Origin: a phage
DNA: 64,000 nucleotides
Direction: 5' to 3' (one strand)
Assembly (NCBI GenBank): GCA_014685065.1
Contig: GCA_014685065.1_3930.1
Shown: positions 25,438-32,510 of the stretch, piece after piece
Numbering within the stretch: position 1 is the stretch's first letter
How the letters are laid out: each line of letters begins with the position of its first letter
Program-made: the position numbers and the translations under genes
Notes under the pieces: model-generated
What the model saw: only the letters and a program-made list of their open reading frames with translations
Databases searched by the model: none
What the model was told of the DNA's origin: nothing

Positions 25438-25513
25438 TGGAGAATCCGAAGGGACTCGAACCCTTATAAACCTGTTTTGCAGACAGGCACATAGCCATTT
25501 CTGTCACGGATTC
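25438..25513 (-). tRNA. tRNA-Cys (anticodon GCA)
   Basis: Hand-folded cloverleaf: acceptor GAATCCG/CGGATTC, anticodon loop CTGCAAA, T-loop TTCGAGT, CCA encoded. Confidence 0.65.
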
Positions 25514-25517
25514 AAAT

Positions 25518-25610
25518 TGGAGGAAGATACCAGACTTGAACTGGTACACCGATTTCTCAGCTACTGGCAGTTTAGCAAACTGCTCCCTTACCTTTTAGGG
25601 TTAATCTTCC
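25518..25610 (-). tRNA. tRNA-Ser (anticodon GCU), class II
   Basis: 93 nt; acceptor GGAAGAT/ATCTTCC, anticodon loop TTGCTAA, long variable arm, T-loop TTCAAGT, CCA encoded. Confidence 0.6.
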
Positions 25611-25611
25611 A

Positions 25612-26346
25612 TTATTTCTGTAATGCGTTCTTCATTTCTGGTGTTGCAATAGTGTCAATTACACCAGTTTTACAGGCATCATCAAACCAGTCTGGTAAGA
25701 TACCTGCTAAGAACCCATTGATATTCGTTTTAAGGTACTCTGCAATAAGGGCAGCTTCTTCTTCAATCATCTGCACAACTTCATCTGCATAAGCTGTAAT
25801 CTTTGAGATACCTTCATTAATCTTACTGACAGCTTGGTTAGCTAAATCAGAAACAGTATCAAGACCCTTGTCAATAGCGTCTTGTAAGTCACTTAATACA
25901 TCGTTAACACTCTCTAGTGTACTGTTAATCGTATCAATAGCTTTTTGACCATATTCTGTAGCAACACCCATAATACCACTGAACGGTGTACAACCAACTT
26001 GTTCTCCTGCTGCACCCATAACATTGGAATATCCATTTGCTACCTGCATACGTGATGAAAACTCATCAATAGATTTTTGACCGTAGTCTGTCAGGGTCTT
26101 AGTAGTTGCTGTAGTGCTTGTAAGGCTTGTTGTAAAGCTGTTTAGAAGGACTGTTGTAAGTCCAGCAGCAACAAGTTTCTCCTGCATTGTAGGGTCTGTT
26201 ACAGAACTAATAGAGCTTACAAGTGATGTAGAAGCAGCTACGGTTCCACCGAGAACTGCTGCACCAGTAATAAGTGGGTTAGAAAACCCTTTACCGGTTT
26301 TTAAGAGATTAAAAATCTCCTTACCTTGTTCTGTCATCTCTTTCAT
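25612..26346 (-). CDS. hypothetical protein within tRNA cluster
   Basis: ORF track start 26409 overlaps tRNA-Phe; start moved to internal ATG (MKEMTEQ...); Ser/Thr-rich middle, helical C-terminus. Confidence 0.45.
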   Translation of the reverse strand: MKEMTEQGKEIFNLLKTGKGFSNPLITGAAVLGGTVAASTSLVSSISSVTDPTMQEKLVAAGLTTVLLNSFTTSLTSTTATTKTLTDYGQKSIDEFSSRMQVANGYSNVMGAAGEQVGCTPFSGIMGVATEYGQKAIDTINSTLESVNDVLSDLQDAIDKGLDTVSDLANQAVSKINEGISKITAYADEVVQMIEEEAALIAEYLKTNINGFLAGILPDWFDDACKTGVIDTIATPEMKNALQK

Positions 26347-26362
26347 TAAGCACCTTTGAAAT

Positions 26363-26439
26363 TGGTAGTCCAGTGGGATTTGAACCCTCTTCTCATGTTT
26401 TTCAGACACGCGCTTTAACCATATAAGCTACTTGGACTA
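26363..26439 (-). tRNA. tRNA-Phe (anticodon GAA)
   Basis: Acceptor TAGTCCA/TGGACTA, anticodon stem CGTGT/ACATG with loop CTGAAAA, T-loop TTCAAAT. Confidence 0.55.
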
Positions 26440-26444
26440 TAAAT

Positions 26445-26520
26445 TGGGGTGACCTACGGGATTTGAACCCGTATAGACCATGTTCACAGCATGGGTCATT
26501 GCCATTTATGATAAGGCCAC
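26445..26520 (-). tRNA. tRNA-His (anticodon GUG)
   Basis: Acceptor GTGGCCT/AGGTCAC, anticodon loop CTGTGAA, T-loop TTCAAAT, CCA encoded. Confidence 0.65.
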
Positions 26521-26551
26521 ATTTAAGGACTCTCGTAAGAACCCTTAGAAG

Positions 26552-26627
26552 TGGCAGCGGCATAAGGATTTGAACCTTAATAGGACAGCTTCAGAGACTG
26601 TTGCATTGCCAGTTATGCTATACCGCT
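26552..26627 (-). tRNA. tRNA-Gln (anticodon CUG)
   Basis: Acceptor AGCGGTA/TGCCGCT, D-stem GCAT/ATGC, anticodon loop CTCTGAA, T-stem TAAGG/CCTTA, CCA encoded. Confidence 0.6.
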
Positions 26628-26632
26628 AAATT

Positions 26633-26711
26633 TGGTACTCCATATCGGATTCGAACCGATACATAACACAGATTTTAAGTCTGGCCTCTCTGCCAATTGG
26701 AGTAATGGAGC
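26633..26711 (-). tRNA. tRNA with anticodon UAA (Leu-type) but class I architecture
   Basis: Acceptor GCTCCAT/ATGGAGT, A73, anticodon loop CTTAAAA, perfect T-arm ATCGG-TTCGAAT-CCGAT; short variable region. Confidence 0.45.
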
Positions 26712-26713
26712 AT

Positions 26714-26788
26714 TGGCGGGGGATGTTGGAATTGAACCAACTTCTTCGATTTCAAAGACCGAGGTTTTAACCTTGTAAACTAATCCCC
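26714..26788 (-). tRNA. tRNA-Gln (anticodon UUG)
   Basis: Anticodon stem TCGGT/ATCGA, loop CTTTGAA, T-arm GTTGG-TTCAATT-CCAAC, CCA encoded. Confidence 0.55.
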
Positions 26789-26797
26789 TTTAAATCT

Positions 26798-27355
26798 TTA
26801 CTTTCTCAGTGGATGAATAAAGAATGCCAACATAACTCTTTCCCTTGAGAATGCTCTTTCTTCTGGGACAACACTTTTTAGTTTCCATCCAATATAAATT
26901 CTCCAGTAAAACTGTTTACCAAAGACTTTAATTGATGGGATAAAAGCGAATAATCCCCAAGCATTACTGTTCCACATTAGGAGATAACCTGTCTGATTAT
27001 CTTCAGGGTCAGAACTTACGTTGATATTACCTTTCCACTTAGTAACATCTTTTACATCTCTTCCTAATACATGGTAAGAGAAGTTATAAGCTTTGTTTCT
27101 CCAGAGCCATCCGACTCTCTGCATGTAGACACCCAGCTTACCAATCTTTCTAATCTTAGCCCATCGTTCGATATGACCTTCGTCACCATCAATTGGATTG
27201 TCATATGTCTCCATCCATCTAAATCCGAAAGGTAAGTGGCCTTTCTTCTCACTGTAAAATGGAACTACGAAAGGTGCTAAGATAACTGCTAAGGTTGCTG
27301 CTAATGGTTCTAGCAAAGCTAGGAAAATCCATGAAGCATATTTTAAATATCTCAT
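26798..27355 (-). CDS. hypothetical membrane protein within tRNA cluster
   Basis: 185 aa; N-terminal hydrophobic segments, Trp-rich; sits exactly between two tRNAs. Confidence 0.5.
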   Translation of the reverse strand: MRYLKYASWIFLALLEPLAATLAVILAPFVVPFYSEKKGHLPFGFRWMETYDNPIDGDEGHIERWAKIRKIGKLGVYMQRVGWLWRNKAYNFSYHVLGRDVKDVTKWKGNINVSSDPEDNQTGYLLMWNSNAWGLFAFIPSIKVFGKQFYWRIYIGWKLKSVVPEERAFSRERVMLAFFIHPLRK

Positions 27356-27364
27356 CTAAATAGC

Positions 27365-27440
27365 CTCTTTAAATTGGCGCAGGATAAGGGATTCGAACCC
27401 CTATTAACAGCTTCGTAGACTGTTGCTCTATCCATTTGAA
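27365..27440 (-). tRNA. tRNA-Arg (anticodon ACG)
   Basis: Acceptor GCAGGAT/ATCCTGC, anticodon stem ACAGT/GCTGT, loop CTACGAA, T-loop TTCGAAT, CCA encoded. Confidence 0.65.
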
Positions 27441-27445
27441 CTAAT

Positions 27446-27523
27446 CCTGCAAAATTGGTGTTCCAAGACGGATTCGAACCGTCACTAGTACAAGGTTTGA
27501 GCTTGCATCCTCTGCCAATTGGG
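27446..27523 (-). tRNA. tRNA with anticodon CAA (Leu-type), class I architecture
   Basis: Acceptor GTTCCAG/TTGGAAC, A73, anticodon stem GCAAG/CTTGT, loop CTCAAAC, T-arm GACGG-TTCGAAT-CCGTC. Confidence 0.45.
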
Positions 27524-27524
27524 A

Positions 27525-27599
27525 TACTGGAACATGGTACTCACTAAAGGACTTGAACCTTTTTCTTCATCTTGTAAGGGTGGTGTTTTACCATATAAA
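27525..27599 (-). tRNA. tRNA, probable Val (anticodon UAC); weak anticodon stem
   Basis: Good acceptor, D and T arms (AAAGG-TTCAAGT-CCTTT); loop CTTACAA but anticodon stem has two C/A mismatches. Confidence 0.35.
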
Positions 27600-27604
27600 C
27601 TAAG

Positions 27605-27690
27605 CGAGTATGAAAGAGGTCTGAAGTTGTGCCGCTAACTCAACTCCGTGGAATTTGTTACGGTCTTCAGTTGACACCAGCGGTCTTTCA
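27605..27690 (-). repeat. structured spacer element (CUGAAGACCG family, copy e)
   Basis: Closing inverted repeat AGAGGTC...GACCTCT; internal CTGAAG...CTTCAG stem; contains ACGGTCTTCAG box shared with the other spacers. Confidence 0.4.
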
Positions 27691-27694
27691 CTTG

Positions 27695-27771
27695 ACCTCT
27701 GAATTGGTGCTGCTCACAGGACTCGAACCTGCATTTCCATCCTTACAAGGGATGTGTAATAGCCAATTATA
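27695..27771 (-). tRNA. tRNA-Thr (anticodon UGU)
   Basis: Acceptor GCTGCTT/GAGCAGC, anticodon stem CATCC/GGATG, loop CTTGTAA, CCA encoded. Confidence 0.65.
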
Positions 27772-27777
27772 CGAAAG

Positions 27778-27852
27778 CAGCATTGTTTGGAGCATCCAGA
27801 GGGAATCGAACCCTCAACCTCAGTTTGGAAGACTGTAATTTTCCCGTTTAAA
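27778..27852 (-). tRNA. tRNA-Gly (anticodon UCC)
   Basis: Acceptor GCATCCA/TGGATGC, anticodon loop CTTCCAA, T-arm GAGGG-TTCGATT-CCCTC. Confidence 0.6.
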
Positions 27853-27858
27853 CTATGG

Positions 27859-27934
27859 ATGCACTAATTGGTGGAGAAGCAGGGAATTGAACCCTGTACT
27901 TAAGTTTGCAAAACTTATGTTTTAACCATGTAAA
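27859..27934 (-). tRNA. tRNA-Ala (anticodon UGC)
   Basis: Anticodon stem TAAGT/ACTTA, loop TTTGCAA, T-arm CAGGG-TTCAATT-CCCTG, CCA encoded. Confidence 0.6.
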
Positions 27935-27940
27935 CTACAT

Positions 27941-28016
27941 CCCCAATGTTTGGTACAGGTGGAGGGAATTGAACCCATCGTCTTACTGATTAAGAGTCAG
28001 CCGCATAACCATTTTG
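27941..28016 (-). tRNA. tRNA-Lys (anticodon CUU)
   Basis: Acceptor GCAGGTG/CACCTGT, anticodon stem GCTGA/TCAGT, loop CTCTTAA, CCA encoded. Confidence 0.55.
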
Positions 28017-28023
28017 CTACACC

Positions 28024-28100
28024 TGCATTAATTTGGTACACCTAGAGAGATTCGAACTCACACTGAGCAGATTCTAAGTCTGCTGCCTCTACCAATTGGG
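28024..28100 (-). tRNA. tRNA with anticodon UAG (Leu-type), class I architecture
   Basis: Acceptor GCACCTA/TAGGTGT, A73, anticodon stem GCAGA/TCTGC, loop CTTAGAA, T-loop TTCGAAT. Confidence 0.45.
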
Positions 28101-28356
28101 CTATAGGTGCATTAAATCTTTTTAGAGAACTTCTAAGAACCTAAGCAACAAGGTTCCACAACAAGCTGTAATAACCTTAGAAGCCCTCTAAAAAGACCTA
28201 ATTTGGTCTTTGCATAGTCTTGTTTAATCCGGTGACTAGAACCTTTGGAGAGCTTGATATTATCTCTTCTCCGTGACACCTACTAGGTGCTTTACTGTGC
28301 GTGTACGACAATACACGAGGGATACCAAAGCAACATCCGAATGAAGCTTGGCTTTA

Positions 28357-28446
28357 AATCTTATTAGGCGGTAAGTAAAGGAGTCGAACCCTCACCGTAT
28401 CTCTACAGTGGCAACTGTTTTCAAGACAGTTTGGCTACCATTAGCC
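28357..28446 (-). tRNA. tRNA-Ser (anticodon UGA), class II
   Basis: ~90 nt; acceptor GGTAGGT/ACTTACC, perfect anticodon stem ACTGT/ACAGT, loop CTTGAAA, long variable arm; only CC of CCA encoded. Confidence 0.55.
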
Positions 28447-28459
28447 GCTACCTACCCCT

Positions 28460-28542
28460 AATAAGACTTTGGCATGGGACGGAGGAGTTGAACCACTTTG
28501 AAACGGTTTTGGAGGCCGTTGCTCATGCCTTAGAGTCTTAAC
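28460..28542 (-). tRNA. tRNA-like gene, possible Trp (anticodon CCA); atypical D-region and T-stem
   Basis: Perfect acceptor GTGGGAC/GTCCCAT with CCA; loop CTCCAAA; D-loop over-long and T-stem with mismatches, may be degenerate. Confidence 0.35.
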
Positions 28543-28684
28543 ATCGTCCCACACTATAATTCGAAGCTTACCGTATTTTCACAACACTGTAAAGCCCCTT
28601 CTCAGATTATTTACATGTTCTGGAAAACATGAGATACAGACCACCTCCTTACACGGAGACCCGATAAGGTCGTCTAAGCAATCT

Positions 28685-28761
28685 GCTAACTATTTGGCAC
28701 ACCCTACAGGATTCGAACCTGTAACTAACGATTTAGAAGACCGTTGCTCTATCCAATTGAA
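28685..28761 (-). tRNA. tRNA-Arg (anticodon UCU)
   Basis: Acceptor GCACCCT/AGGGTGT, anticodon stem ACGGT/ATCGT, loop CTTCTAA; D-arm near-identical to tRNA-Arg(ACG). Confidence 0.65.
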
Positions 28762-29008
28762 CTAAGGGTGCATTAATCTTTAAAGACTCTCTTAGAAAGC
28801 CCTTAAAGATGCCCACCTTATTAATCATACCGTGGGCGAGTACGCCAAATTCTTTGATGAGGGATTGGAAGACCTCACTGGTGTTTAGCCTATCAAGCTA
28901 CTGCCAGAAAAACATTGTCGTTTGCATTTATTTTAAATTTGCAAAATAGACGCTACGCAACGAAAACTAAGGTTACTATAAAGTGGTCACATCTCAATGT
29001 CAACAACT

Positions 29009-29084
29009 TTATTGAAATTGGTACTGTGAGAAGGATTCGAACCTTCTGCCTTTCGGTTATCAGCCGAATGCACATCCATATGTG
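29009..29084 (-). tRNA. tRNA-Ile (anticodon GAU)
   Basis: Acceptor GCTGTGA/TCACAGT, D-stem GCAC/GTGC, anticodon stem TTCGG/CCGAA, loop CTGATAA, CCA encoded. Confidence 0.65.
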
Positions 29085-29087
29085 CTT

Positions 29088-29573
29088 TCACAGCATTGTT
29101 ACCCCTTCGTGTACCTCTCTGTGGCAATTTGCACACAGTAATACACACTTATCAACTTCAGACTTCATTACCTCTATAGAGAAGTGTTTTTGTCCTACTG
29201 TGAAGTCCTTTGTATTAGGGTCTAAGTGGTGAAACTCTAAAGCCTTTATGCACTTATTGTATCCACAAATTGAGCAACAACCACCTTTGTAATCAACTAA
29301 AACCCTCTTAAGTTTGTCACGAGACTTTTTAACGTGTTGTGACTTCGCTTTCTTTTCTTCATCGGGGTTTTTGTATTGTTTCAGAATACCATTTGAAATA
29401 CATTCATCACAATACTTTCTTGATTTTGGTGTTTGTTTTCCACATGAATGACAAGAGCCTTCTTGTCTTCTTTTTGGATGACTCTTGTTGTTTACCCTTG
29501 CAGCACAAGAGCGTGAACAATATTTTCCGCCTTTAACGGCTTTGTTGTCACAATCTTTATTAGCACAAAACAT
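29088..29573 (-). CDS. HNH homing endonuclease with N-terminal Cys-rich zinc-finger repeats
   Basis: C-terminal HNH motif (CCSICGYN...LEFHHLDP...CVLLCANCHREVH); four CxxC-type pairs N-terminally; ORF-track start at 29732 would overlap tRNA-Met so start set at MFCANKDC. Confidence 0.7.
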   Translation of the reverse strand: MFCANKDCDNKAVKGGKYCSRSCAARVNNKSHPKRRQEGSCHSCGKQTPKSRKYCDECISNGILKQYKNPDEEKKAKSQHVKKSRDKLKRVLVDYKGGCCSICGYNKCIKALEFHHLDPNTKDFTVGQKHFSIEVMKSEVDKCVLLCANCHREVHEGVTML

Positions 29574-29589
29574 AATATCACCAACGAAT

Positions 29590-29666
29590 TGGAGGTTCAG
29601 ATGGGAATCGAACCCACATTCATAGGGCTTATGAGACCCCTGCATTACCTTATCTGCGACTGAACC
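29590..29666 (-). tRNA. tRNA-Met (anticodon CAU; elongator vs initiator vs Ile2 unresolved)
   Basis: Acceptor GGTTCAG/CTGAACC, anticodon stem GGGGT/GCCCT with G-U ends, loop CTCATAA, T-loop TTCGATT. Confidence 0.6.
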
Positions 29667-29670
29667 ATAT

Positions 29671-29746
29671 TGGTAGAAGTGGAGGGATTCGAACCCATCG
29701 CCTGTCAGATTAAAAGTCTGCCGCATCACCATTCTGCTACACTTCC
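29671..29746 (-). tRNA. tRNA-Lys (anticodon UUU)
   Basis: Anticodon loop CTTTTAA, T-arm similar to tRNA-Lys(CUU), CCA encoded. Confidence 0.6.
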
Positions 29747-29752
29747 ATTAAA

Positions 29753-29894
29753 ATTATCTTTGTAGATAAGCTATCCAGACTTGCTTAAGGTCTGTAGCGA
29801 TGTGCCTTGTTGGGTTTAAATCTAGAATTTACCCTTTCACTCTTTGTGGTCGCATACTCACAGGTAAGCTTAATAACTTATCTACAAAGATAAT
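29753..29894 (-). repeat. perfect 18-bp inverted repeat pair flanking a 106-bp core (hairpin RNA or MITE-like insertion)
   Basis: ATTATCTTTGTAGATAAG at 29753-29770 and exact reverse complement at 29877-29894; core holds CAGAC-TTGCTTAAG-GTCTG hairpin. Confidence 0.5.
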
Positions 29895-29895
29895 T

Positions 29896-30028
29896 ACCAG
29901 ACCGTTGTTTATCATCTTAAGTGCTACCATTACACCAACTCGACATCTGCCGAGTGAAGGAATCGAACCTTCGCCTTTTCTTTACCGGAGAAATAGATTG
30001 TTTAAGTTTTGCTGTAAACGGTCTTCTG
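29896..30028 (-). repeat. spacer element copy a (CCAGACC...GGTCTTCTG family) containing tRNA-like T-arm and D-arm in permuted order
   Basis: Closing stem AGACCGTT/AACGGTCT; internal GGCGAAGG-TTCGATT-CCTTC T-arm-like hairpin followed by GAGTTGGTGTAATGGTAGCAC D-arm-like segment. Confidence 0.4.
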
Positions 30029-30040
30029 TAAATTTGTTGA

Positions 30041-30116
30041 GCCAGACCAAGTTTTAAATTTTCAAAATTAAATTGGCTTGAAATTTCATACATTCTTGCT
30101 GTATTTGGTCTTCTGC
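30041..30116 (-). repeat. spacer element copy b (CCAGACC...GGTCTTCTG family)
   Basis: GCCAGACCAAG...TTGGTCTTCTG closing inverted repeat; conserved ACAGCAAG box in minus sense. Confidence 0.4.
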
Positions 30117-30202
30117 TCCTTTAAAGAATACTCGTAAGAACCCTTTAAGGGAGGGGCTAAATAGCCCTCTCAAAACATCATCTTGAAATACTTATTATAA
30201 TT

Positions 30203-30279
30203 TGGCGGTTACGAAGGGATTTGAACCCTCATCATCTCCCGTGACAGGGGAGTATTTTAACCAGTTAAACTACATAACC
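30203..30279 (-). tRNA. tRNA-Asp (anticodon GUC)
   Basis: Anticodon stem CTCCC/GGGAG, loop CTGTCAC, T-arm GAGGG-TTCAAAT-CCCTT, CCA encoded. Confidence 0.65.
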
Positions 30280-30285
30280 TTTATT

Positions 30286-30373
30286 TGGTGTGCCGTGTAG
30301 GAGTCGAACCTACCGAGTCTCAATGACAAGGGATTTACAGTCCCCACCGCTACCATCTACGGGATAACGACAC
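30286..30373 (-). tRNA. tRNA-Tyr (anticodon GUA), class II
   Basis: 88 nt; acceptor GTGTCGT/ACGGCAC, anticodon stem GGGGA/TCCCT, loop CTGTAAA, long variable arm, T-arm GTAGG-TTCGACT-CCTAC. Confidence 0.6.
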
Positions 30374-30442
30374 ATTTAATTTCTATTCAGGCTAAGGACT
30401 TGCACCTTACAAATCGGTGAGCAATCGCTTCTCTCCTAAATT

Positions 30443-30519
30443 TGGCGGTTAGTCAGGGATTCGAACCCTGTGCCATTCGCTTAACAGGCGACCGCACATA
30501 CCTTATGTGCTTCCTAACC
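30443..30519 (-). tRNA. tRNA-Asn (anticodon GUU)
   Basis: D-stem GCAC/GTGC, anticodon loop CTGTTAA, T-arm CAGGG-TTCGAAT-CCCTG, CCA encoded. Confidence 0.6.
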
Positions 30520-30529
30520 TTAATACATT

Positions 30530-30591
30530 GCCAGACCGTGTTTTTTCTTTTATCCGCAAAAAGTATTTTGTTGCTGAATACGGTCTTCTGC
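30530..30591 (-). repeat. spacer element copy c (CCAGACC...GGTCTTCTG family)
   Basis: GCCAGACCGTG...ATACGGTCTTCTG closing inverted repeat with ~45-nt structured loop. Confidence 0.4.
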
Positions 30592-30596
30592 AAAAT

Positions 30597-30672
30597 TGGA
30601 GGCGGGTGCAGGAGTCGAACCTGCCGATACCATGCTAATGAGACATGTGAGACGCCCTTTCTCTATACCCGC
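30597..30672 (-). tRNA. second CAU-anticodon tRNA (Met/fMet/Ile2 candidate)
   Basis: D-stem GAGA/TCTC, anticodon stem CATGT/GCATG, loop CTCATTA (unusual U at position 37), T-arm GCAGG-TTCGACT-CCTGC. Confidence 0.5.
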
Positions 30673-30683
30673 AATTCTTAATG

Positions 30684-30759
30684 ACCAGACCAAATCTCTT
30701 CTTTGTCCGATTTACCTTCAGATGAATAAGATTAAGTTTGCTGTAATTGGTCTTCTGTC
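30684..30759 (-). repeat. spacer element copy d (CCAGACC...GGTCTTCTG family)
   Basis: GACCAGACCAAA...ATTGGTCTTCTG closing inverted repeat; conserved ACAGCAAACTTAA box in minus sense. Confidence 0.4.
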
Positions 30760-30764
30760 AAAAC

Positions 30765-30842
30765 TGGCGTTCCAGAAGGGATTTGAACCCTCAAATATCC
30801 ACTTTGAAAGAGTGGTGACTTTACCATTTTGTCTACTGGAAC
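30765..30842 (-). tRNA. tRNA-Glu (anticodon UUC)
   Basis: Perfect acceptor GTTCCAG/CTGGAAC and anticodon stem CCACT/AGTGG, loop CTTTCAA, CCA encoded. Confidence 0.65.
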
Positions 30843-30849
30843 ATTAATT

Positions 30850-30929
30850 TGGTCTCCGTTGAAGGATTTGAACCCTCGACCCCTTGCTCCCAAAGCAAGT
30901 GCTGCTAAACCAAACTGAGCTAAACGGAG
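30850..30929 (-). tRNA. tRNA-Pro (anticodon UGG)
   Basis: Anticodon stem CTTGC/GCAAG, loop TTTGGGA; 3' half resembles bacterial tRNA-Pro (GGGGTCGAGGGTTCAAATCC); CCA encoded. Confidence 0.6.
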
Positions 30930-30954: not shown

Positions 30955-30986
30955 CACTTTAACATTATTTTTTAGTGGTTGTCAAG
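30955..30986 (-). promoter_or_regulatory. candidate sigma70-type promoter for the tRNA operon
   Basis: Minus-sense TTGACA-N17-TTAAAG with AT-rich upstream tract, ~25 nt before tRNA-Pro 5' end; AACCACT/AGTGGTT inverted repeat overlaps it. Confidence 0.35.
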
Positions 30987-31042
30987 AACTTTTTTAAAAT
31001 ATTTTTCAGTATCTTAGAAAAGCTCTCATTTCGTTTCTATGT

Positions 31043-31082
31043 AGAACATATTAAAGGGTATCAAACACATTGTCAATACCCT
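31043..31082. terminator. hairpin AAAGGGTAT...ATACCCTTT (terminator-like on plus strand)
   Basis: 9-bp perfect arms, T-run follows on plus strand; lies just downstream of the vWA gene stop. Confidence 0.3.
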
Positions 31083-31094
31083 TTTTAAAACTTT

Positions 31095-32510
31095 TTACCA
31101 GATGTAACGGTCAATCATTACTGCTTTGAGCATTACGCTGATTGGGTCAAACTTCTCACCACCAAGCAGAGCTTTTAAAGTGGCTGGAGAGAACCCTGAT
31201 ACCATTGCTACACCATTATCCTTAACAGATACTTCGCAAGTACCATTACGGTTTGCTAAGTACCAGAATACCAGTTGTGGCATTTTGTATCCAGCTTTTT
31301 TGTACTTACTACGAATCGCTTCAAAGTTTGTACGACCATTAGCTCCATCAACCTGATTGAACTCCATATCAGAGAAGATAATAAGCTTACTTGGCATATC
31401 TTTCTGAGTCAAGTTGTTTCTCTTACCTGTTTCAAGAATGCGGTCAAAAGCTGCTTGTAAGTTAGTTGAGCCATATTCAACGTGTCGCATCACCTGACGA
31501 TGACGGTTTCGTAAATCACCACTCAGTTCGATGAAGTGAGGGTTTGTCGAATAAACCATCAACTCATTCTTAAAGCAACCTGTATTGCGTTCTGCTACAT
31601 ACAAGGCAAGTGATACACCAATATCCAGAGCAGTAATGGAGCCAAAATTCACCCAAGACATTGAACTTGATACATCAGACATACACAAGATGTTTTCACC
31701 TTCTGCCATCCAGTTTGGTAGTGCTTTCCACTGCTCATTAGCAACATCTGCATTACCATACTTGACAGATTTAATCACATCGTATGGGTAAACAGCACCA
31801 GCGTTAATCTTAGTCTCACCTTTTGATAAGGACTCGATGTAAGCTTTGTAACGCTCTCCATCTTTACGGTTAAACAGTTTTTGGTAACGTGCAGCAGCAA
31901 GTGAAGGAATCTTACTGTAGTCAATCTTACCAAACTCATTAGCAGAGATTTTTTGCTCAACTGTATCAGATAGTGCAGACAACAGTGTGCGATACTCTTT
32001 CTCACTCAAGTTTGCAAACTTGCAGAAACGTTTTACAAACTGTTTGTGACGTGGTTTTACTCGTGGTAACCACTTAGCTGCTAAACCTGCTGTTGCAGGG
32101 TCTAGTAAAGCTGCTTCTAAATGTTTGAAGGCATCTGTCTCGAAACGAGTACCTACAAAGATTTTGAAGTCATCAAAGCGACCAAGCTCTGCAATCTTAT
32201 CCATAATGCGAAGAACCTGCGTAGGCTCTAAAACTTTATCTTCAATCGCTTGAAGTAAAACAGTTCGGAAAGCTTTACGCTCACCCATACCTTCTCGTAC
32301 ATCTCGCATATGCAGTAAAATACGAACTGCAACATCAACATCCTCATGCAAAGCTTTGTAGAACAAGTCTGGTAAGATTTCTACATTGCTACGGCTGGAA
32401 CCAGCAGCTTTGTAAAAGTCCACAAGAGCAGACATTGATGAAGTATGGTTTACAGCACCATTTTCAGTTCGACCTGCATGAAGGTGCGCATGTTTAAATA
32501 ATTCGCTCAT
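31095..32510 (-). CDS. von Willebrand factor A (vWA) domain protein with helical N-terminal domain
   Basis: 471 aa; MIDAS-like DxSxS motif (MSDVSSSMS) and downstream Thr/Asp positions (GSTNL, IIFSDMEF) typical of vWA. Confidence 0.55.
   Translation of the reverse strand: MSELFKHAHLHAGRTENGAVNHTSSMSALVDFYKAAGSSRSNVEILPDLFYKALHEDVDVAVRILLHMRDVREGMGERKAFRTVLLQAIEDKVLEPTQVLRIMDKIAELGRFDDFKIFVGTRFETDAFKHLEAALLDPATAGLAAKWLPRVKPRHKQFVKRFCKFANLSEKEYRTLLSALSDTVEQKISANEFGKIDYSKIPSLAAARYQKLFNRKDGERYKAYIESLSKGETKINAGAVYPYDVIKSVKYGNADVANEQWKALPNWMAEGENILCMSDVSSSMSWVNFGSITALDIGVSLALYVAERNTGCFKNELMVYSTNPHFIELSGDLRNRHRQVMRHVEYGSTNLQAAFDRILETGKRNNLTQKDMPSKLIIFSDMEFNQVDGANGRTNFEAIRSKYKKAGYKMPQLVFWYLANRNGTCEVSVKDNGVAMVSGFSPATLKALLGGEKFDPISVMLKAVMIDRYIW

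What the first reader, a model, noticed from the sequence alone, without database searches (positions are those of the whole stretch)
29753..29894. Perfect 18-bp inverted repeats flanking a 106-bp core inside the tRNA cluster
ATTATCTTTGTAGATAAG (29753-29770) is exactly reverse-complemented at 29877-29894. An 18-bp perfect stem is far beyond chance in an AT-rich genome. It could form a long RNA hairpin (RNase III substrate) in the polycistronic tRNA precursor, or be the terminal inverted repeats of a miniature mobile insertion. The core contains a CAGAC...GTCTG hairpin related to the spacer family.
Basis: seen in the sequence. Interest (0 to 1): 0.5.

Follow-up and report, generated by a model that had tools for sequence, protein, structure and literature searches.

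The report
Conserved structured RNA before phage tRNA-Lys
The inverted repeat is real and is the closing stem of a conserved, unannotated small structured RNA in the tRNA operon of Felix O1-like phages; it is not a mobile element, and it lies next to a tRNA mimic just downstream of a Ro60-like gene, which makes it a testable candidate for the RNA partner of that anti-defence protein.

Summary
The exact 18-nt arms extend to 23 nt with one G·U, enclosing 98 nt. It is the only inverted repeat of this size in the 64-kb window.

The window is a Felixounavirus, and the element lies on the transcribed (minus) strand of the tRNA operon, 5 nt before tRNA-Lys(UUU).

The mobile-element reading is rejected:
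- one copy per genome, always at the same position;
- no target-site duplication;
- absent from 5,426 E. coli genomes;
- the arms covary instead of being conserved (16 of 22 stem pairs changed on both sides, 96.7% paired).

Relatives whose neighbouring protein is only 54-63% identical keep a 22-27 bp stem of different sequence. They also keep a terminal hairpin with a CUUAAGCAA-like loop, always directly before tRNA-Lys(UUU). No Rfam family matches, and the overlapping ORFs are not conserved.

Context found here:
- the 471-aa ORF heading the operon is a Ro60 structural homologue, which a preprint already noted for phage Bas63 gp130;
- a circularly permuted, YrlA-like tRNA mimic lies immediately upstream of the hairpin.

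Best reading: a stable non-coding RNA excised from the tRNA precursor, possibly a Y-RNA-like partner of the Ro60-like protein. Its role as a partner is inferred, not shown. RNase III processing of the stem remains plausible.

The parts
29752..29895 (-). Whole structured RNA element (about 144 nt): closing stem plus a three-hairpin core, forming a four-way junction
   Evidence: Fold z = -6.1. Consensus folds of the Felix/L015-type and Susp/Moogle-type sets. Present in about 250 Ounavirinae records. No Rfam family matches.
29873..29895 (-). 5' strand of the closing stem (RNA sense AAUUAUCUUUGUAGAUAAGUUAU)
   Evidence: Covariation shown.
29752..29774 (-). 3' strand of the closing stem (AUAGCUUAUCUACAAAGAUAAUU); it ends 5 nt before tRNA-Lys
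29845..29862 (-). Core hairpin A (UGUG-AGUAUGCGAC-CACA) with the conserved loop GAGUAUGCGR
   Evidence: RNAalifold: UGUG/CACA becomes GGGG/CCCC in L015 and L124, with two pairs changed on both sides.
29812..29834 (-). Core hairpin B (GGGU...ACCC) with a conserved loop containing the palindrome CUAG (UUCUAGAUU)
   Evidence: In the Susp/Moogle type the enclosing 7-bp helix has two compensatory pairs.
29776..29794 (-). Terminal hairpin C (CAGAC CUUAAGCAA GUCUG); the loop is conserved and the stem covaries. It looks like a minimal version of the CAGAAGACC...GGTCTGG spacer module
   Evidence: Stems seen: CAGAC, CAAACC, CAGUC, AAGUC, GUUC, GAGAC.
29671..29746 (-). tRNA-Lys(UUU), always the immediate 3' neighbour; RNase P cleavage at its 5' end would define the 3' end of the element (inferred)
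29897..30028 (-). Immediate 5' neighbour: a circularly permuted tRNA mimic. Parts: V arm 29977-29993, T arm 29956-29972, 7-bp acceptor hairpin 29938-29955, D arm 29921-29935, enclosed by CAGAAGACCGTT / AACGGTCTGG. The topology is YrlA-like
   Evidence: Topology as described in PMC4201824.
31095..32510 (-). Ro60-like protein gene (DUF2828 + DUF7788) at the head of the tRNA operon, on the same strand and 1.2 kb upstream of the element
   Evidence: Pfam. AlphaFold2 model pLDDT 86.8. Foldseek top 9 hits are all Ro60/Rsr/phage Ro60. The Bas63 gp130 precedent is in the preprint.
30956..31076 (-). Two sigma-70-like promoters between the Ro60-like gene and tRNA-Pro, consistent with minus-strand transcription of the cluster
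   Evidence: 10 of 12 matches each; consensus matches only.

Best explanation
The inverted repeat is the 23-24 bp closing helix of a conserved non-coding RNA of about 145 nt, a four-way junction with three small hairpins. It is encoded on the transcribed strand of the phage tRNA operon, directly 5' of tRNA-Lys(UUU). It is made as part of the polycistronic tRNA precursor. RNase P cutting at the 5' end of tRNA-Lys leaves the element with a 3' end a few nucleotides past the stem. An endonuclease (RNase III in or near the stem, or RNase E in the AU-rich linker) frees the 5' side. The long helix then protects the RNA from 3' exonucleases, so it accumulates as a stable small RNA. The most likely role is as a Y-RNA-like partner or scaffold, together with the adjacent YrlA-like tRNA mimic, for the Ro60-like protein encoded at the head of the same operon. 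Shown here: the structure, its conservation by covariation, its strand, its synteny, its non-coding and non-mobile nature, and the Ro60 fold of the neighbouring protein. Inferred: the processing steps, stable accumulation and any binding to the Ro60-like protein. My confidence that it is a selected RNA structure is about 0.9. My confidence in the Ro60-partner role is about 0.3. The figure given below is for the whole statement.
For: Structure:
- Fold z = -6.1.
- Closing-stem test on 11 distinct sequences from four clades: 96.7% of cells paired against 35-45% when the partner is slid; 16 of 22 pairs changed on both sides; 0 of 500 shuffles reached any measure.
- The inner hairpins also show compensatory changes.

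Conservation and linkage:
- Homologues sit in the same place in Felixounavirus, Suspvirus and Mooglevirus. They also occur in phages whose Ro60-like protein is only 54-63% identical to the window's protein (L014, L015, L122-L125), with unrelated stem sequences but the same architecture and the same CUUAAGCAA-type loop.
- Of 796 distinct tRNA-upstream regions, 35 have such a long-stem leader, and 26 of those are tRNA-Lys(UUU). That is 26 of the 35 distinct tRNA-Lys(UUU) regions tested.

Non-coding: the 85-aa antisense ORF and the 33-aa sense ORF exist only in the Felix type.

Ro60 context:
- The upstream 471-aa ORF models with pLDDT 86.8, and its nine best PDB matches are all Ro60/Rsr/phage phiLo Ro60 over the full length.
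- A permuted tRNA mimic with the V-T-acceptor hairpin-D order of YrlA abuts the element.
- Similar mimics, several with an encoded N-CCA, lie beside DUF2828 genes in unrelated phages, always on the gene's strand, with 0 hits in reversed-sequence controls.
- Published precedent: bacterial and phage Ro60 loci encode two Y RNAs on the same strand within 4 kb, processed from one precursor (PMC4201824; PMC12135203).
- The Bas63 preprint predicted unidentified Y RNAs among the 'tRNA genes' downstream of gp130.
Against: - The element has no CGAA / GNCGAAN0-1G motif and no bulged Ro-binding helix. Rfam Y_RNA and YrlA models do not hit it, even at E <= 10.
- The Ro60-like gene heads tRNA clusters in many phages that lack this hairpin. 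Adjacency may therefore reflect a general tRNA link and not a specific partnership.
- The element tracks tRNA-Lys(UUU) more tightly than it tracks the tRNA mimic. L015 and L124 have the hairpin but no mimic, and in the P778-like clade a tRNA-Ala separates the two.
- Phage FG1m keeps the Ro60-like gene but has lost the whole Lys-to-Asn segment, so the RNA is dispensable at least in culture.
- A second long hairpin sits before tRNA-Leu(UAG), which fits a generic processing role.
- No expression, end-mapping or binding data were available.
Confidence: 0.45

Rival explanations
1. It is purely a processing and stability element of the precursor. The 23-bp helix is an RNase III site, and/or a barrier to 3' exonucleases once RNase P has cut at tRNA-Lys. 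It separates the upstream and downstream parts of the polycistronic tRNA transcript, and the core has no function of its own.
For: The stem is 22-27 bp in every clade, about two helical turns, which from general knowledge is the minimum for RNase III. It always ends 0-7 nt from a tRNA 5' end. A second hairpin with a 24-25 bp stem sits directly before tRNA-Leu(UAG), and shorter hairpins with similar AUCUUU/AAAGAU bases precede other tRNAs. The core diverges strongly between the Felix and Susp types while the stem is kept.
Against: The core is not free to vary. Three inner hairpins are kept by compensatory changes. Three loop motifs (GAGUAUGCGR, CUAG, CUUAAGCAA) persist across clades whose stems share no sequence. 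A plain cleavage site would not need a 98-nt four-way junction. The two roles are also not exclusive: RNase III stems flank functional RNAs such as 16S and 23S rRNA.
Confidence: 0.3
2. It is a leader specific to tRNA-Lys(UUU). It would tune maturation or the level of this tRNA, or act as a decoy for host nucleases that attack tRNA-Lys. Anticodon nucleases such as PrrC and PARIS target tRNA-Lys, according to general knowledge.
For: The linkage to tRNA-Lys(UUU) is strict across all clades, even where the upstream neighbour changes from tRNA-Asp plus mimic to tRNA-Ala. The terminal hairpin CAGAC-CUUAAGCAA-GUCUG loosely resembles the Felix-type tRNA-Lys anticodon arm GCAGA-CUUUUAA-UCUGA.
Against: The stem of the terminal hairpin does not covary with the tRNA-Lys anticodon stem in other clades. 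The loop is 8-9 nt, not 7, and lacks UUU. Linkage could simply be inherited synteny.
Confidence: 0.12
3. It is a miniature inverted-repeat mobile element, or the scar of one, inserted into the tRNA cluster.
For: It has perfect 18-nt terminal inverted repeats and an AT-rich context. The Felix-type and Susp-type cores differ sharply between otherwise similar flanks, which hints at cassette exchange by recombination.
Against: There is a single copy in the window, and nearly every matching genome has it at a single place (190 records, 193 places), always at the same locus. There is no match in 20,395 E. coli records and no flanking direct repeat. The arms covary instead of being conserved. Relatives that lack the element have lost more than 1 kb through tRNA-to-tRNA deletion, not by precise excision.
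Confidence: 0.02
4. The region encodes a small protein: the 85-aa plus-strand ORF annotated as a hypothetical protein in some records, or the 33-aa minus-strand ORF.
For: ORF 29800-30057 (+) is 85 aa. It is annotated as orf047 in phage AYO145A.
Against: Both ORFs are broken in the Susp/Moogle-type, L015-type and P778-type homologues, although the RNA structure is kept. The plus-strand ORF is antisense to the operon and runs through the tRNA mimic.
Confidence: 0.02

Closest known systems
Bacterial and phage Y RNAs bound by Ro60/Rsr (YrlA and YrlB of Salmonella and Mycobacterium; Yrl1 and Yrl2 of Thermus phage phiLo)
   Same: A small RNA whose 5' and 3' ends form a long stem around a large structured 'loop'. 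It is encoded on the same strand within a few kb of a Ro60-type gene. It sits next to a tRNA-mimicking RNA with V, T, acceptor-hairpin and D arms, and is probably cut from a common precursor (PMC4201824; PMC12135203).
   Different: It has no CGAA / GNCGAAN0-1G motif and no bulged Ro-binding helix, and gets no Rfam Y_RNA or YrlA hit. The protein is a DUF2828/DUF7788 family member only 12-16% identical to solved Ro60s. The RNA is embedded in a tRNA operon and fused to tRNA-Lys. Binding is untested.
Phage T4 species 1 and species 2 stable RNAs (rnaC, rnaD)
   Same: Small stable RNAs of about 120-140 nt and unknown function, encoded inside a phage tRNA cluster and co-transcribed with the tRNAs (annotation).
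   Different: There is no sequence or architectural similarity. T4 rnaC folds with a T arm and an acceptor-like end and lies 3' of tRNA-Arg. The present RNA has a 23-bp closing stem and lies 5' of tRNA-Lys.
RNase III processing stems that flank functional RNAs (16S/23S rRNA precursors, phage T7 early transcripts)
   Same: A helix of about two turns formed by sequences flanking a structured RNA within a polycistronic precursor (general knowledge).
   Different: Cleavage has not been demonstrated here. T7 sites usually carry an internal loop, whereas this stem is almost perfectly paired.
Bas63 gp130, the Ro60-like counter-defence protein of a Felixounavirus (PhageMaP preprint)
   Same: The same gene family at the same genomic position, heading the tRNA genes. 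The authors proposed that some downstream 'tRNA genes' are really Y RNAs.
   Different: The preprint names no RNA candidate. The hairpin and the permuted tRNA mimic described here are not called as tRNAs by ARAGORN, nor are they marked in the record annotations I inspected.

Membership tests
Y RNA / YrlA-YrlB class | 5' and 3' ends pair into a long stem that encloses a large internal loop or module | tested here: met
   23-24 bp stem around a 96-98 nt core, conserved by covariation.
Y RNA / YrlA-YrlB class | Conserved Ro-binding helix with the CGAA (GNCGAAN0-1G) motif or a bulged helix in the stem | tested here: not met
   There is no CGAA anywhere in 29752-29895, and the stem is essentially perfect. 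The only GGCGAAGG lies in the T stem of the neighbouring mimic and is absent from the Moogle version.
Y RNA / YrlA-YrlB class | Match to the curated covariance models (Rfam Y_RNA, YrlA) | tested here: not met
   No hit at E <= 10 in a 471-nt scan or a 6.5-kb scan. No YrlA hit at the gathering score in 10 related loci.
Y RNA / YrlA-YrlB class | Encoded near (<= 4 kb) a Ro60 orthologue and on the same strand | tested here: met
   The Ro60-like ORF 31095-32510 (-) ends 1.2 kb upstream on the same strand. The protein is Ro60-like by fold only (Pfam DUF2828/DUF7788).
Y RNA / YrlA-YrlB class | Physically bound by the Ro60 protein | not testable with these tools
   Needs immunoprecipitation, EMSA or CLIP.
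Miniature inverted-repeat transposable element | Multiple dispersed copies in a genome or in related genomes | tested here: not met
   One copy in the window. Nearly every matching phage record holds it at a single place (190 records, 193 places). None in E. coli genomes.
Miniature inverted-repeat transposable element | Target-site duplication flanking the terminal repeats | tested here: not met
   The flanks are ...CCATTAA and ACCAGAC..., with no direct repeat.
Miniature inverted-repeat transposable element | Empty sites in relatives with boundaries that coincide with the repeats | tested here: not met
   All Ounavirinae loci examined carry a homologue at this site. FG1m lacks it because it has lost the whole Lys-to-Asn segment.
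RNase III substrate | Roughly 20 bp or more of near-continuous double-stranded RNA | tested here: met
   22-27 bp with 0-3 mismatches in every clade.
RNase III substrate | Staggered cleavage in the stem that depends on rnc | not testable with these tools
   Needs 5'/3' end mapping in rnc+ and rnc- infections.
Intrinsic terminator | G+C-rich hairpin directly followed by a run of U | tested here: not met
   No terminator-like site is called at the element on the minus strand. The stem is AU-rich and is followed by UUUUAAU or UUUAAU only.
tRNA or tRNA-like RNA (the hairpin itself) | Cloverleaf or T-arm/acceptor features recognised by ARAGORN or Rfam | tested here: not met
   There is no ARAGORN or Rfam tRNA call within 29752-29895. 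The tRNA-like signal (22 bits) belongs to the neighbour at 29955-30005.

The most novel reading that the evidence does not exclude
The hairpin RNA and the adjacent permuted tRNA mimic are the missing Y-like RNA subunits of a phage Ro60-like ribonucleoprotein (Bas63 gp130 family) that is expressed together with the phage tRNA operon. This RNP would act on tRNA or RNA turnover to neutralise a host defence such as ppl. [quoted passage not shown]
Probability: 0.3. Interest if true: 0.8.

Novelty: new variant of a known kind. Interest (0 to 1): 0.58.

Why it matters
Felix O1-like phages are classic Salmonella and E. coli typing and therapy phages, yet this roughly 145-nt RNA is unannotated, or mis-annotated as a hypothetical protein, and absent from Rfam. 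A 2024 preprint showed that the Ro60-like protein encoded 1.2 kb upstream counters an anti-phage system, and guessed that unidentified Y RNAs hide among the downstream tRNA genes. This analysis supplies two concrete, covariation-supported candidates, the hairpin and the permuted tRNA mimic, with exact coordinates. The question 'what RNA does the phage Ro60-like protein use?' becomes directly testable by pull-down and deletion. It also shows that DUF2828 Ro60-like genes recurrently head tRNA or tmRNA clusters in diverse phages, which points to a general link between phage tRNA operons and Ro/Y-type RNA surveillance. If the element turns out to be only an RNase III processing stem, it is still a clean, conserved example of precursor architecture in a phage tRNA operon.

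Tried and rejected
- Rfam scans of the cluster and of the 471-nt neighbourhood at E <= 10 gave nothing for the hairpin. Weak hits (miRNA, snoRNA, IS605-orfB-II, Dictyostelium class I) are chance matches to hairpins.
- Rfam at gathering scores on 10 related loci found no YrlA.
- Mobile element: rejected.
- Coding: rejected.
- Decoy for the tRNA-Lys anticodon arm: the terminal-hairpin stem does not covary with the tRNA-Lys anticodon stem.
- Antisense targets: sites complementary to the conserved loops CUUAAGCAAG and AUUCUAGAUU are not enriched in the window.
- T4 rnaC and rnaD were fetched and folded and show no architectural similarity.
- A single MAFFT/RNAalifold alignment of all four types mis-aligned the divergent cores. 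I therefore analysed the stem on base-anchored arms and the cores within each type.
- A metagenome pattern scan recovered only the Felix and L015 types plus chance hits in coding DNA.
- A first fuzzy-regex script timed out.
- I did not build a covariance model, because the tool cannot accept a hand-curated alignment and the automatic one was poor.
- Supplementary tables of the YrlA paper were not available, so I could not check whether Felix O1-like phages were among its 22 phages.

Full report
OBSERVATION

The 18-nt sequence ATTATCTTTGTAGATAAG is at 29753-29770, and its exact reverse complement is at 29877-29894. Even with three mismatches allowed, shuffles give 0.15 matches on average. The repeat finder extends the arms to 23 nt (29752-29774 / 29873-29895) with one non-Watson-Crick position and 98 nt between them. 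It is the only inverted repeat of at least 18 nt within 400 nt anywhere in the 64-kb window. ARAGORN finds 26 tRNA genes at 25438-30929, all on the minus strand. The element lies between tRNA-Asp (30203-30279) and tRNA-Lys-UUU (29671-29746). Folded as minus-strand RNA, 29747-29900 gives -46.9 kcal/mol against -26.6 +/- 3.3 for shuffles (z = -6.1).

WHAT GENOME THIS IS

The region matches 294 phage records at 80-99% identity, led by Felix O1-like phages of Escherichia and Salmonella (Felixounavirus, Ounavirinae). Two sigma-70-like promoters lie on the minus strand upstream of tRNA-Pro. The element is therefore on the transcribed strand of a polycistronic tRNA operon.

IT IS NOT A MOBILE ELEMENT

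- The 154-nt element is found in 190 phage records at 93-99% identity. Nearly every record holds it at a single place (193 places in all), always between tRNA-Asp and tRNA-Lys.
- A second sequence type occupies the same site in Suspvirus, Mooglevirus and some Felixounavirus.
- There is no second copy in the window and no match in 20,395 E. coli records.
- There is no flanking direct repeat.
- Phages that lack the region (FG1m) have lost the whole Lys-to-Asn segment, not a unit bounded by the repeats.
- Phage warpig has lost Asp, Tyr and Asn but keeps the element.

IT IS A SELECTED RNA STRUCTURE

Alignment of the interval across genera shows paired changes in the arms. GUAG/CUAC becomes GCAG/CUGC. 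One base is deleted from both arms at the same stem position. A G-C pair becomes C-G.

More distant relatives were reached through the neighbouring protein gene: Yersinia phage P778 and five Logan contigs, whose protein is 54-63% identical to the window's. All of them carry a 22-27 bp helix enclosing 93-120 nt that ends 0-7 nt before tRNA-Lys(UUU). The arm sequences are unrelated to the Felix type.

I tested the stem on 11 distinct sequences aligned from the base of the helix:
- 96.7% of cells are standard pairs, against 35-45% when the partner is slid by 1-3 columns.
- 16 of 22 pairs have changes on both sides.
- None of 500 shuffles reaches any of the five measures.

One caveat applies. The arms were picked from each sequence's own fold, which inflates the percentage paired. 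It does not explain why a helix of this length recurs at the homologous position.

Within the core, RNAalifold supports three hairpins:
- Hairpin A (29845-29862): UGUG/CACA becomes GGGG/CCCC, with the conserved loop GAGUAUGCGR.
- Hairpin B (29812-29834): the conserved loop contains the palindrome CUAG. In the Susp type the enclosing 7-bp helix has two compensatory pairs.
- Hairpin C (29776-29794): the stem is CAGAC, CAAACC, CAGUC, AAGUC, GUUC or GAGAC, and the loop is CUUAAGCAA, CUUUAGCAA or CCUUAGCAA.

The element is thus a four-way junction of about 145 nt. No Rfam family matches it, even at E <= 10. The 85-aa plus-strand ORF, annotated as a hypothetical protein in AYO145A, and a 33-aa minus-strand ORF exist only in the Felix type. 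The region is therefore non-coding.

LINKAGE TO tRNA-Lys(UUU)

I folded the 190 nt upstream of every tRNA in all loci held, 796 distinct regions. Thirty-five have a stem of at least 16 bp that spans at least 90 nt and ends within 12 nt of the tRNA. Twenty-six of these precede tRNA-Lys(UUU), which is 26 of its 35 distinct upstream regions. Five precede tRNA-Leu(UAG). The upstream neighbour changes between clades (tRNA-Asp plus mimic, tRNA-Asp alone, tRNA-Ala), but the downstream tRNA-Lys does not. A metagenome pattern scan recovered only Felix-type and L015-type copies, each followed by tRNA-Lys(UUU).

CONTEXT THAT BEARS ON FUNCTION

(a) The tRNA mimic. Directly upstream of the hairpin (29897-30028, minus strand) is a circularly permuted tRNA-like RNA, built in this order:
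- a variable stem-loop (29977-29993);
- a canonical T arm GAAGG-UUCGAUU-CCUUC;
- a 7-bp acceptor helix closed by a short loop (ACUCGGC-AGAU-GUCGAGU);
- UG;
- a D arm GUGU-AAUGGUA-GCAC.

All of this is enclosed by CAGAAGACCGUU / AACGGUCUGG. The acceptor hairpin has six mutually compensating versions in relatives. In Moogle, L122, L067 and L082 the 3' strand is followed by N-CCA. This is the V-T-AS-D topology described for bacterial YrlA Y RNAs. The M. smegmatis YrlA has a 7-bp acceptor stem, is cut by RNase P and receives CCA (PMC4201824). Rfam's YrlA model does not reach it, so it resembles YrlA in design but is not shown to be a member.

(b) The Ro60-like protein. The ORF at 31095-32510 (minus strand, 471 aa) heads the operon and carries Pfam DUF2828 + DUF7788. 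Its AlphaFold2 model (pLDDT 86.8, pTM 0.87) has as its nine best PDB matches Xenopus and human Ro60, Deinococcus Rsr, a TROVE domain and the Ro60 of Thermus phage phiLo. These matches run over the full length at E = 2e-8 to 1e-6 and query-normalised TM-scores of 0.48-0.65. The resemblance has already been reported for Bas63 gp130, a Felixounavirus protein that counters the ppl defence system. Those authors suggested that some downstream 'tRNA genes' may be Y RNAs but named none.

(c) Generality. Among 40 diverse IMG/VR loci that encode this protein family, 22 have tRNA genes, all on the gene's strand and often starting within 100-600 nt of its stop. Five others have a tmRNA. My strict motif scan for the permuted mimic hits nine of the distant loci as well, always on the gene's strand, with no hits in reversed sequences.

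(d) Precedent. The phiLo Ro60 binds two Y-like RNAs encoded next to it (PMC12135203).

MECHANISM PROPOSED

Shown:
- a conserved four-way-junction RNA domain on the transcribed strand;
- its position abutting tRNA-Lys;
- a YrlA-like mimic next to it;
- a Ro60-fold gene 1.2 kb upstream on the same strand.

Inferred:
- The element is released from the precursor. RNase P at tRNA-Lys sets its 3' end, and RNase III or RNase E cuts on the 5' side.
- Its long helix makes it exonuclease-resistant, so it accumulates.
- It works with the mimic as an RNA partner of the Ro60-like protein.

The main rival is that it is only a processing or stability hairpin. Supporting that, a second hairpin with a 24-25 bp stem precedes tRNA-Leu(UAG) (28114-28199), and shorter hairpins with similar AUCUUU/AAAGAU bases precede other tRNAs. 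Against a purely structural role are the conserved loops and the covarying inner helices.

Against the Ro60-partner role:
- there is no CGAA or bulged Ro-binding site;
- linkage to tRNA-Lys is tighter than linkage to the mimic or the gene;
- FG1m keeps the gene without the RNA.

A tRNA-Lys anticodon-arm decoy was considered. The terminal-hairpin stem does not covary with the tRNA's anticodon stem. Complementary target sites for the conserved loops are not enriched in the window. T4 species 1 and 2 RNAs are analogous in setting only.

VERDICT

The RNA-hairpin reading is right and the transposon reading is wrong. The element is an unannotated, conserved structured RNA family restricted to Felix O1-like phages and their relatives. 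It is the best available candidate, with its tRNA-mimic neighbour, for the RNA component of the phage Ro60-like system. Function remains to be shown.

Noticed in passing
window 29897-30028 (-): A circularly permuted tRNA mimic: V stem-loop, T arm, 7-bp acceptor hairpin closed by a 4-nt loop, and D arm, enclosed by CAGAAGACCGTT / AACGGTCTGG. The acceptor hairpin has six covarying versions in relatives, some followed by an encoded N-CCA. The topology matches bacterial YrlA Y RNAs, but Rfam YrlA does not hit it. ARAGORN does not call it as a tRNA, and it is not marked in the record annotations I inspected.
   Followed up: partly
window 31095-32510 (-): A 471-aa DUF2828 + DUF7788 protein whose AlphaFold2 model matches Ro60/Rsr/phage Ro60 over its full length. 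It belongs to the same family as Bas63 gp130, reported to counter the ppl defence system. Records annotate it as hypothetical, 'vWFA protein' or 'RNA-binding protein'.
   Followed up: yes
IMG/VR loci L021-L060; L032, L035, L043, L067, L082, L088, L092, L093: In diverse phages the DUF2828 Ro60-like gene sits at the head of a tRNA cluster and points the same way (22 of 40 loci). Five others have a tmRNA nearby. Nine distant loci also carry permuted tRNA mimics on the same strand, and L067 and L082 have two each.
   Followed up: partly
window 30685-30757, 30531-30590, 30042-30115, 29897-30028 (-): Four copies of a spacer module, CAGAAGACC-N5-CAGCAA-[variable insert]-NNGGTCTGG. One encloses the tRNA mimic. 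The terminal hairpin of the finding looks like a minimal version. Function is unknown; they could be protein-binding or processing sites.
   Followed up: partly
window 28114-28199 (-): A second long hairpin (24-25 bp stem, about 40 nt inside) ends directly before tRNA-Leu(UAG). It is conserved in several Felixounavirus loci and gave a chance Rfam miRNA-like hit.
   Followed up: partly
window about 30119-30150, 26521-26551, 28772-28812 (-): A family of short hairpins, UUAAAGGGUUCUUACGAG..CUUUAA, in several tRNA spacers, some directly before a tRNA. A separate GAGAGGGCUAUUUAGCCCCUCCC hairpin follows tRNA-Asp.
   Followed up: no
window 29095-29589 (-): The 495-nt spacer between tRNA-Met and tRNA-Ile holds a cysteine-rich ORF that is annotated as an HNH endonuclease in Felix O1 records. 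It is a probable homing endonuclease inside the tRNA cluster.
   Followed up: no
window 28772-28961 and 28476-28550 (-): Weak Rfam hits to tmRNA (15.9 bits, E = 0.0026), permuted tmRNA and tRNA-Sec in two long spacers. The second contains a T-arm-like GGUUCAACUCC followed by ...CAUGCCA. These may be further degenerate or mimic tRNA-like RNAs.
   Followed up: no
L013 (Salmonella phage FG1m) and L012 (Escherichia phage warpig): Natural deletion variants. FG1m has lost the whole tRNA-Lys-to-Asn segment, including the hairpin and the mimic, but keeps the Ro60-like gene. Warpig has lost tRNA-Asp, Tyr and Asn but keeps the mimic and the hairpin.
   Followed up: partly
L011 (Escherichia phage tootiki) compared with the window: Within Felixounavirus some phages carry the Susp/Moogle-type core joined to a Felix-type stem base. 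This suggests the core is exchanged by recombination between genera.
   Followed up: no
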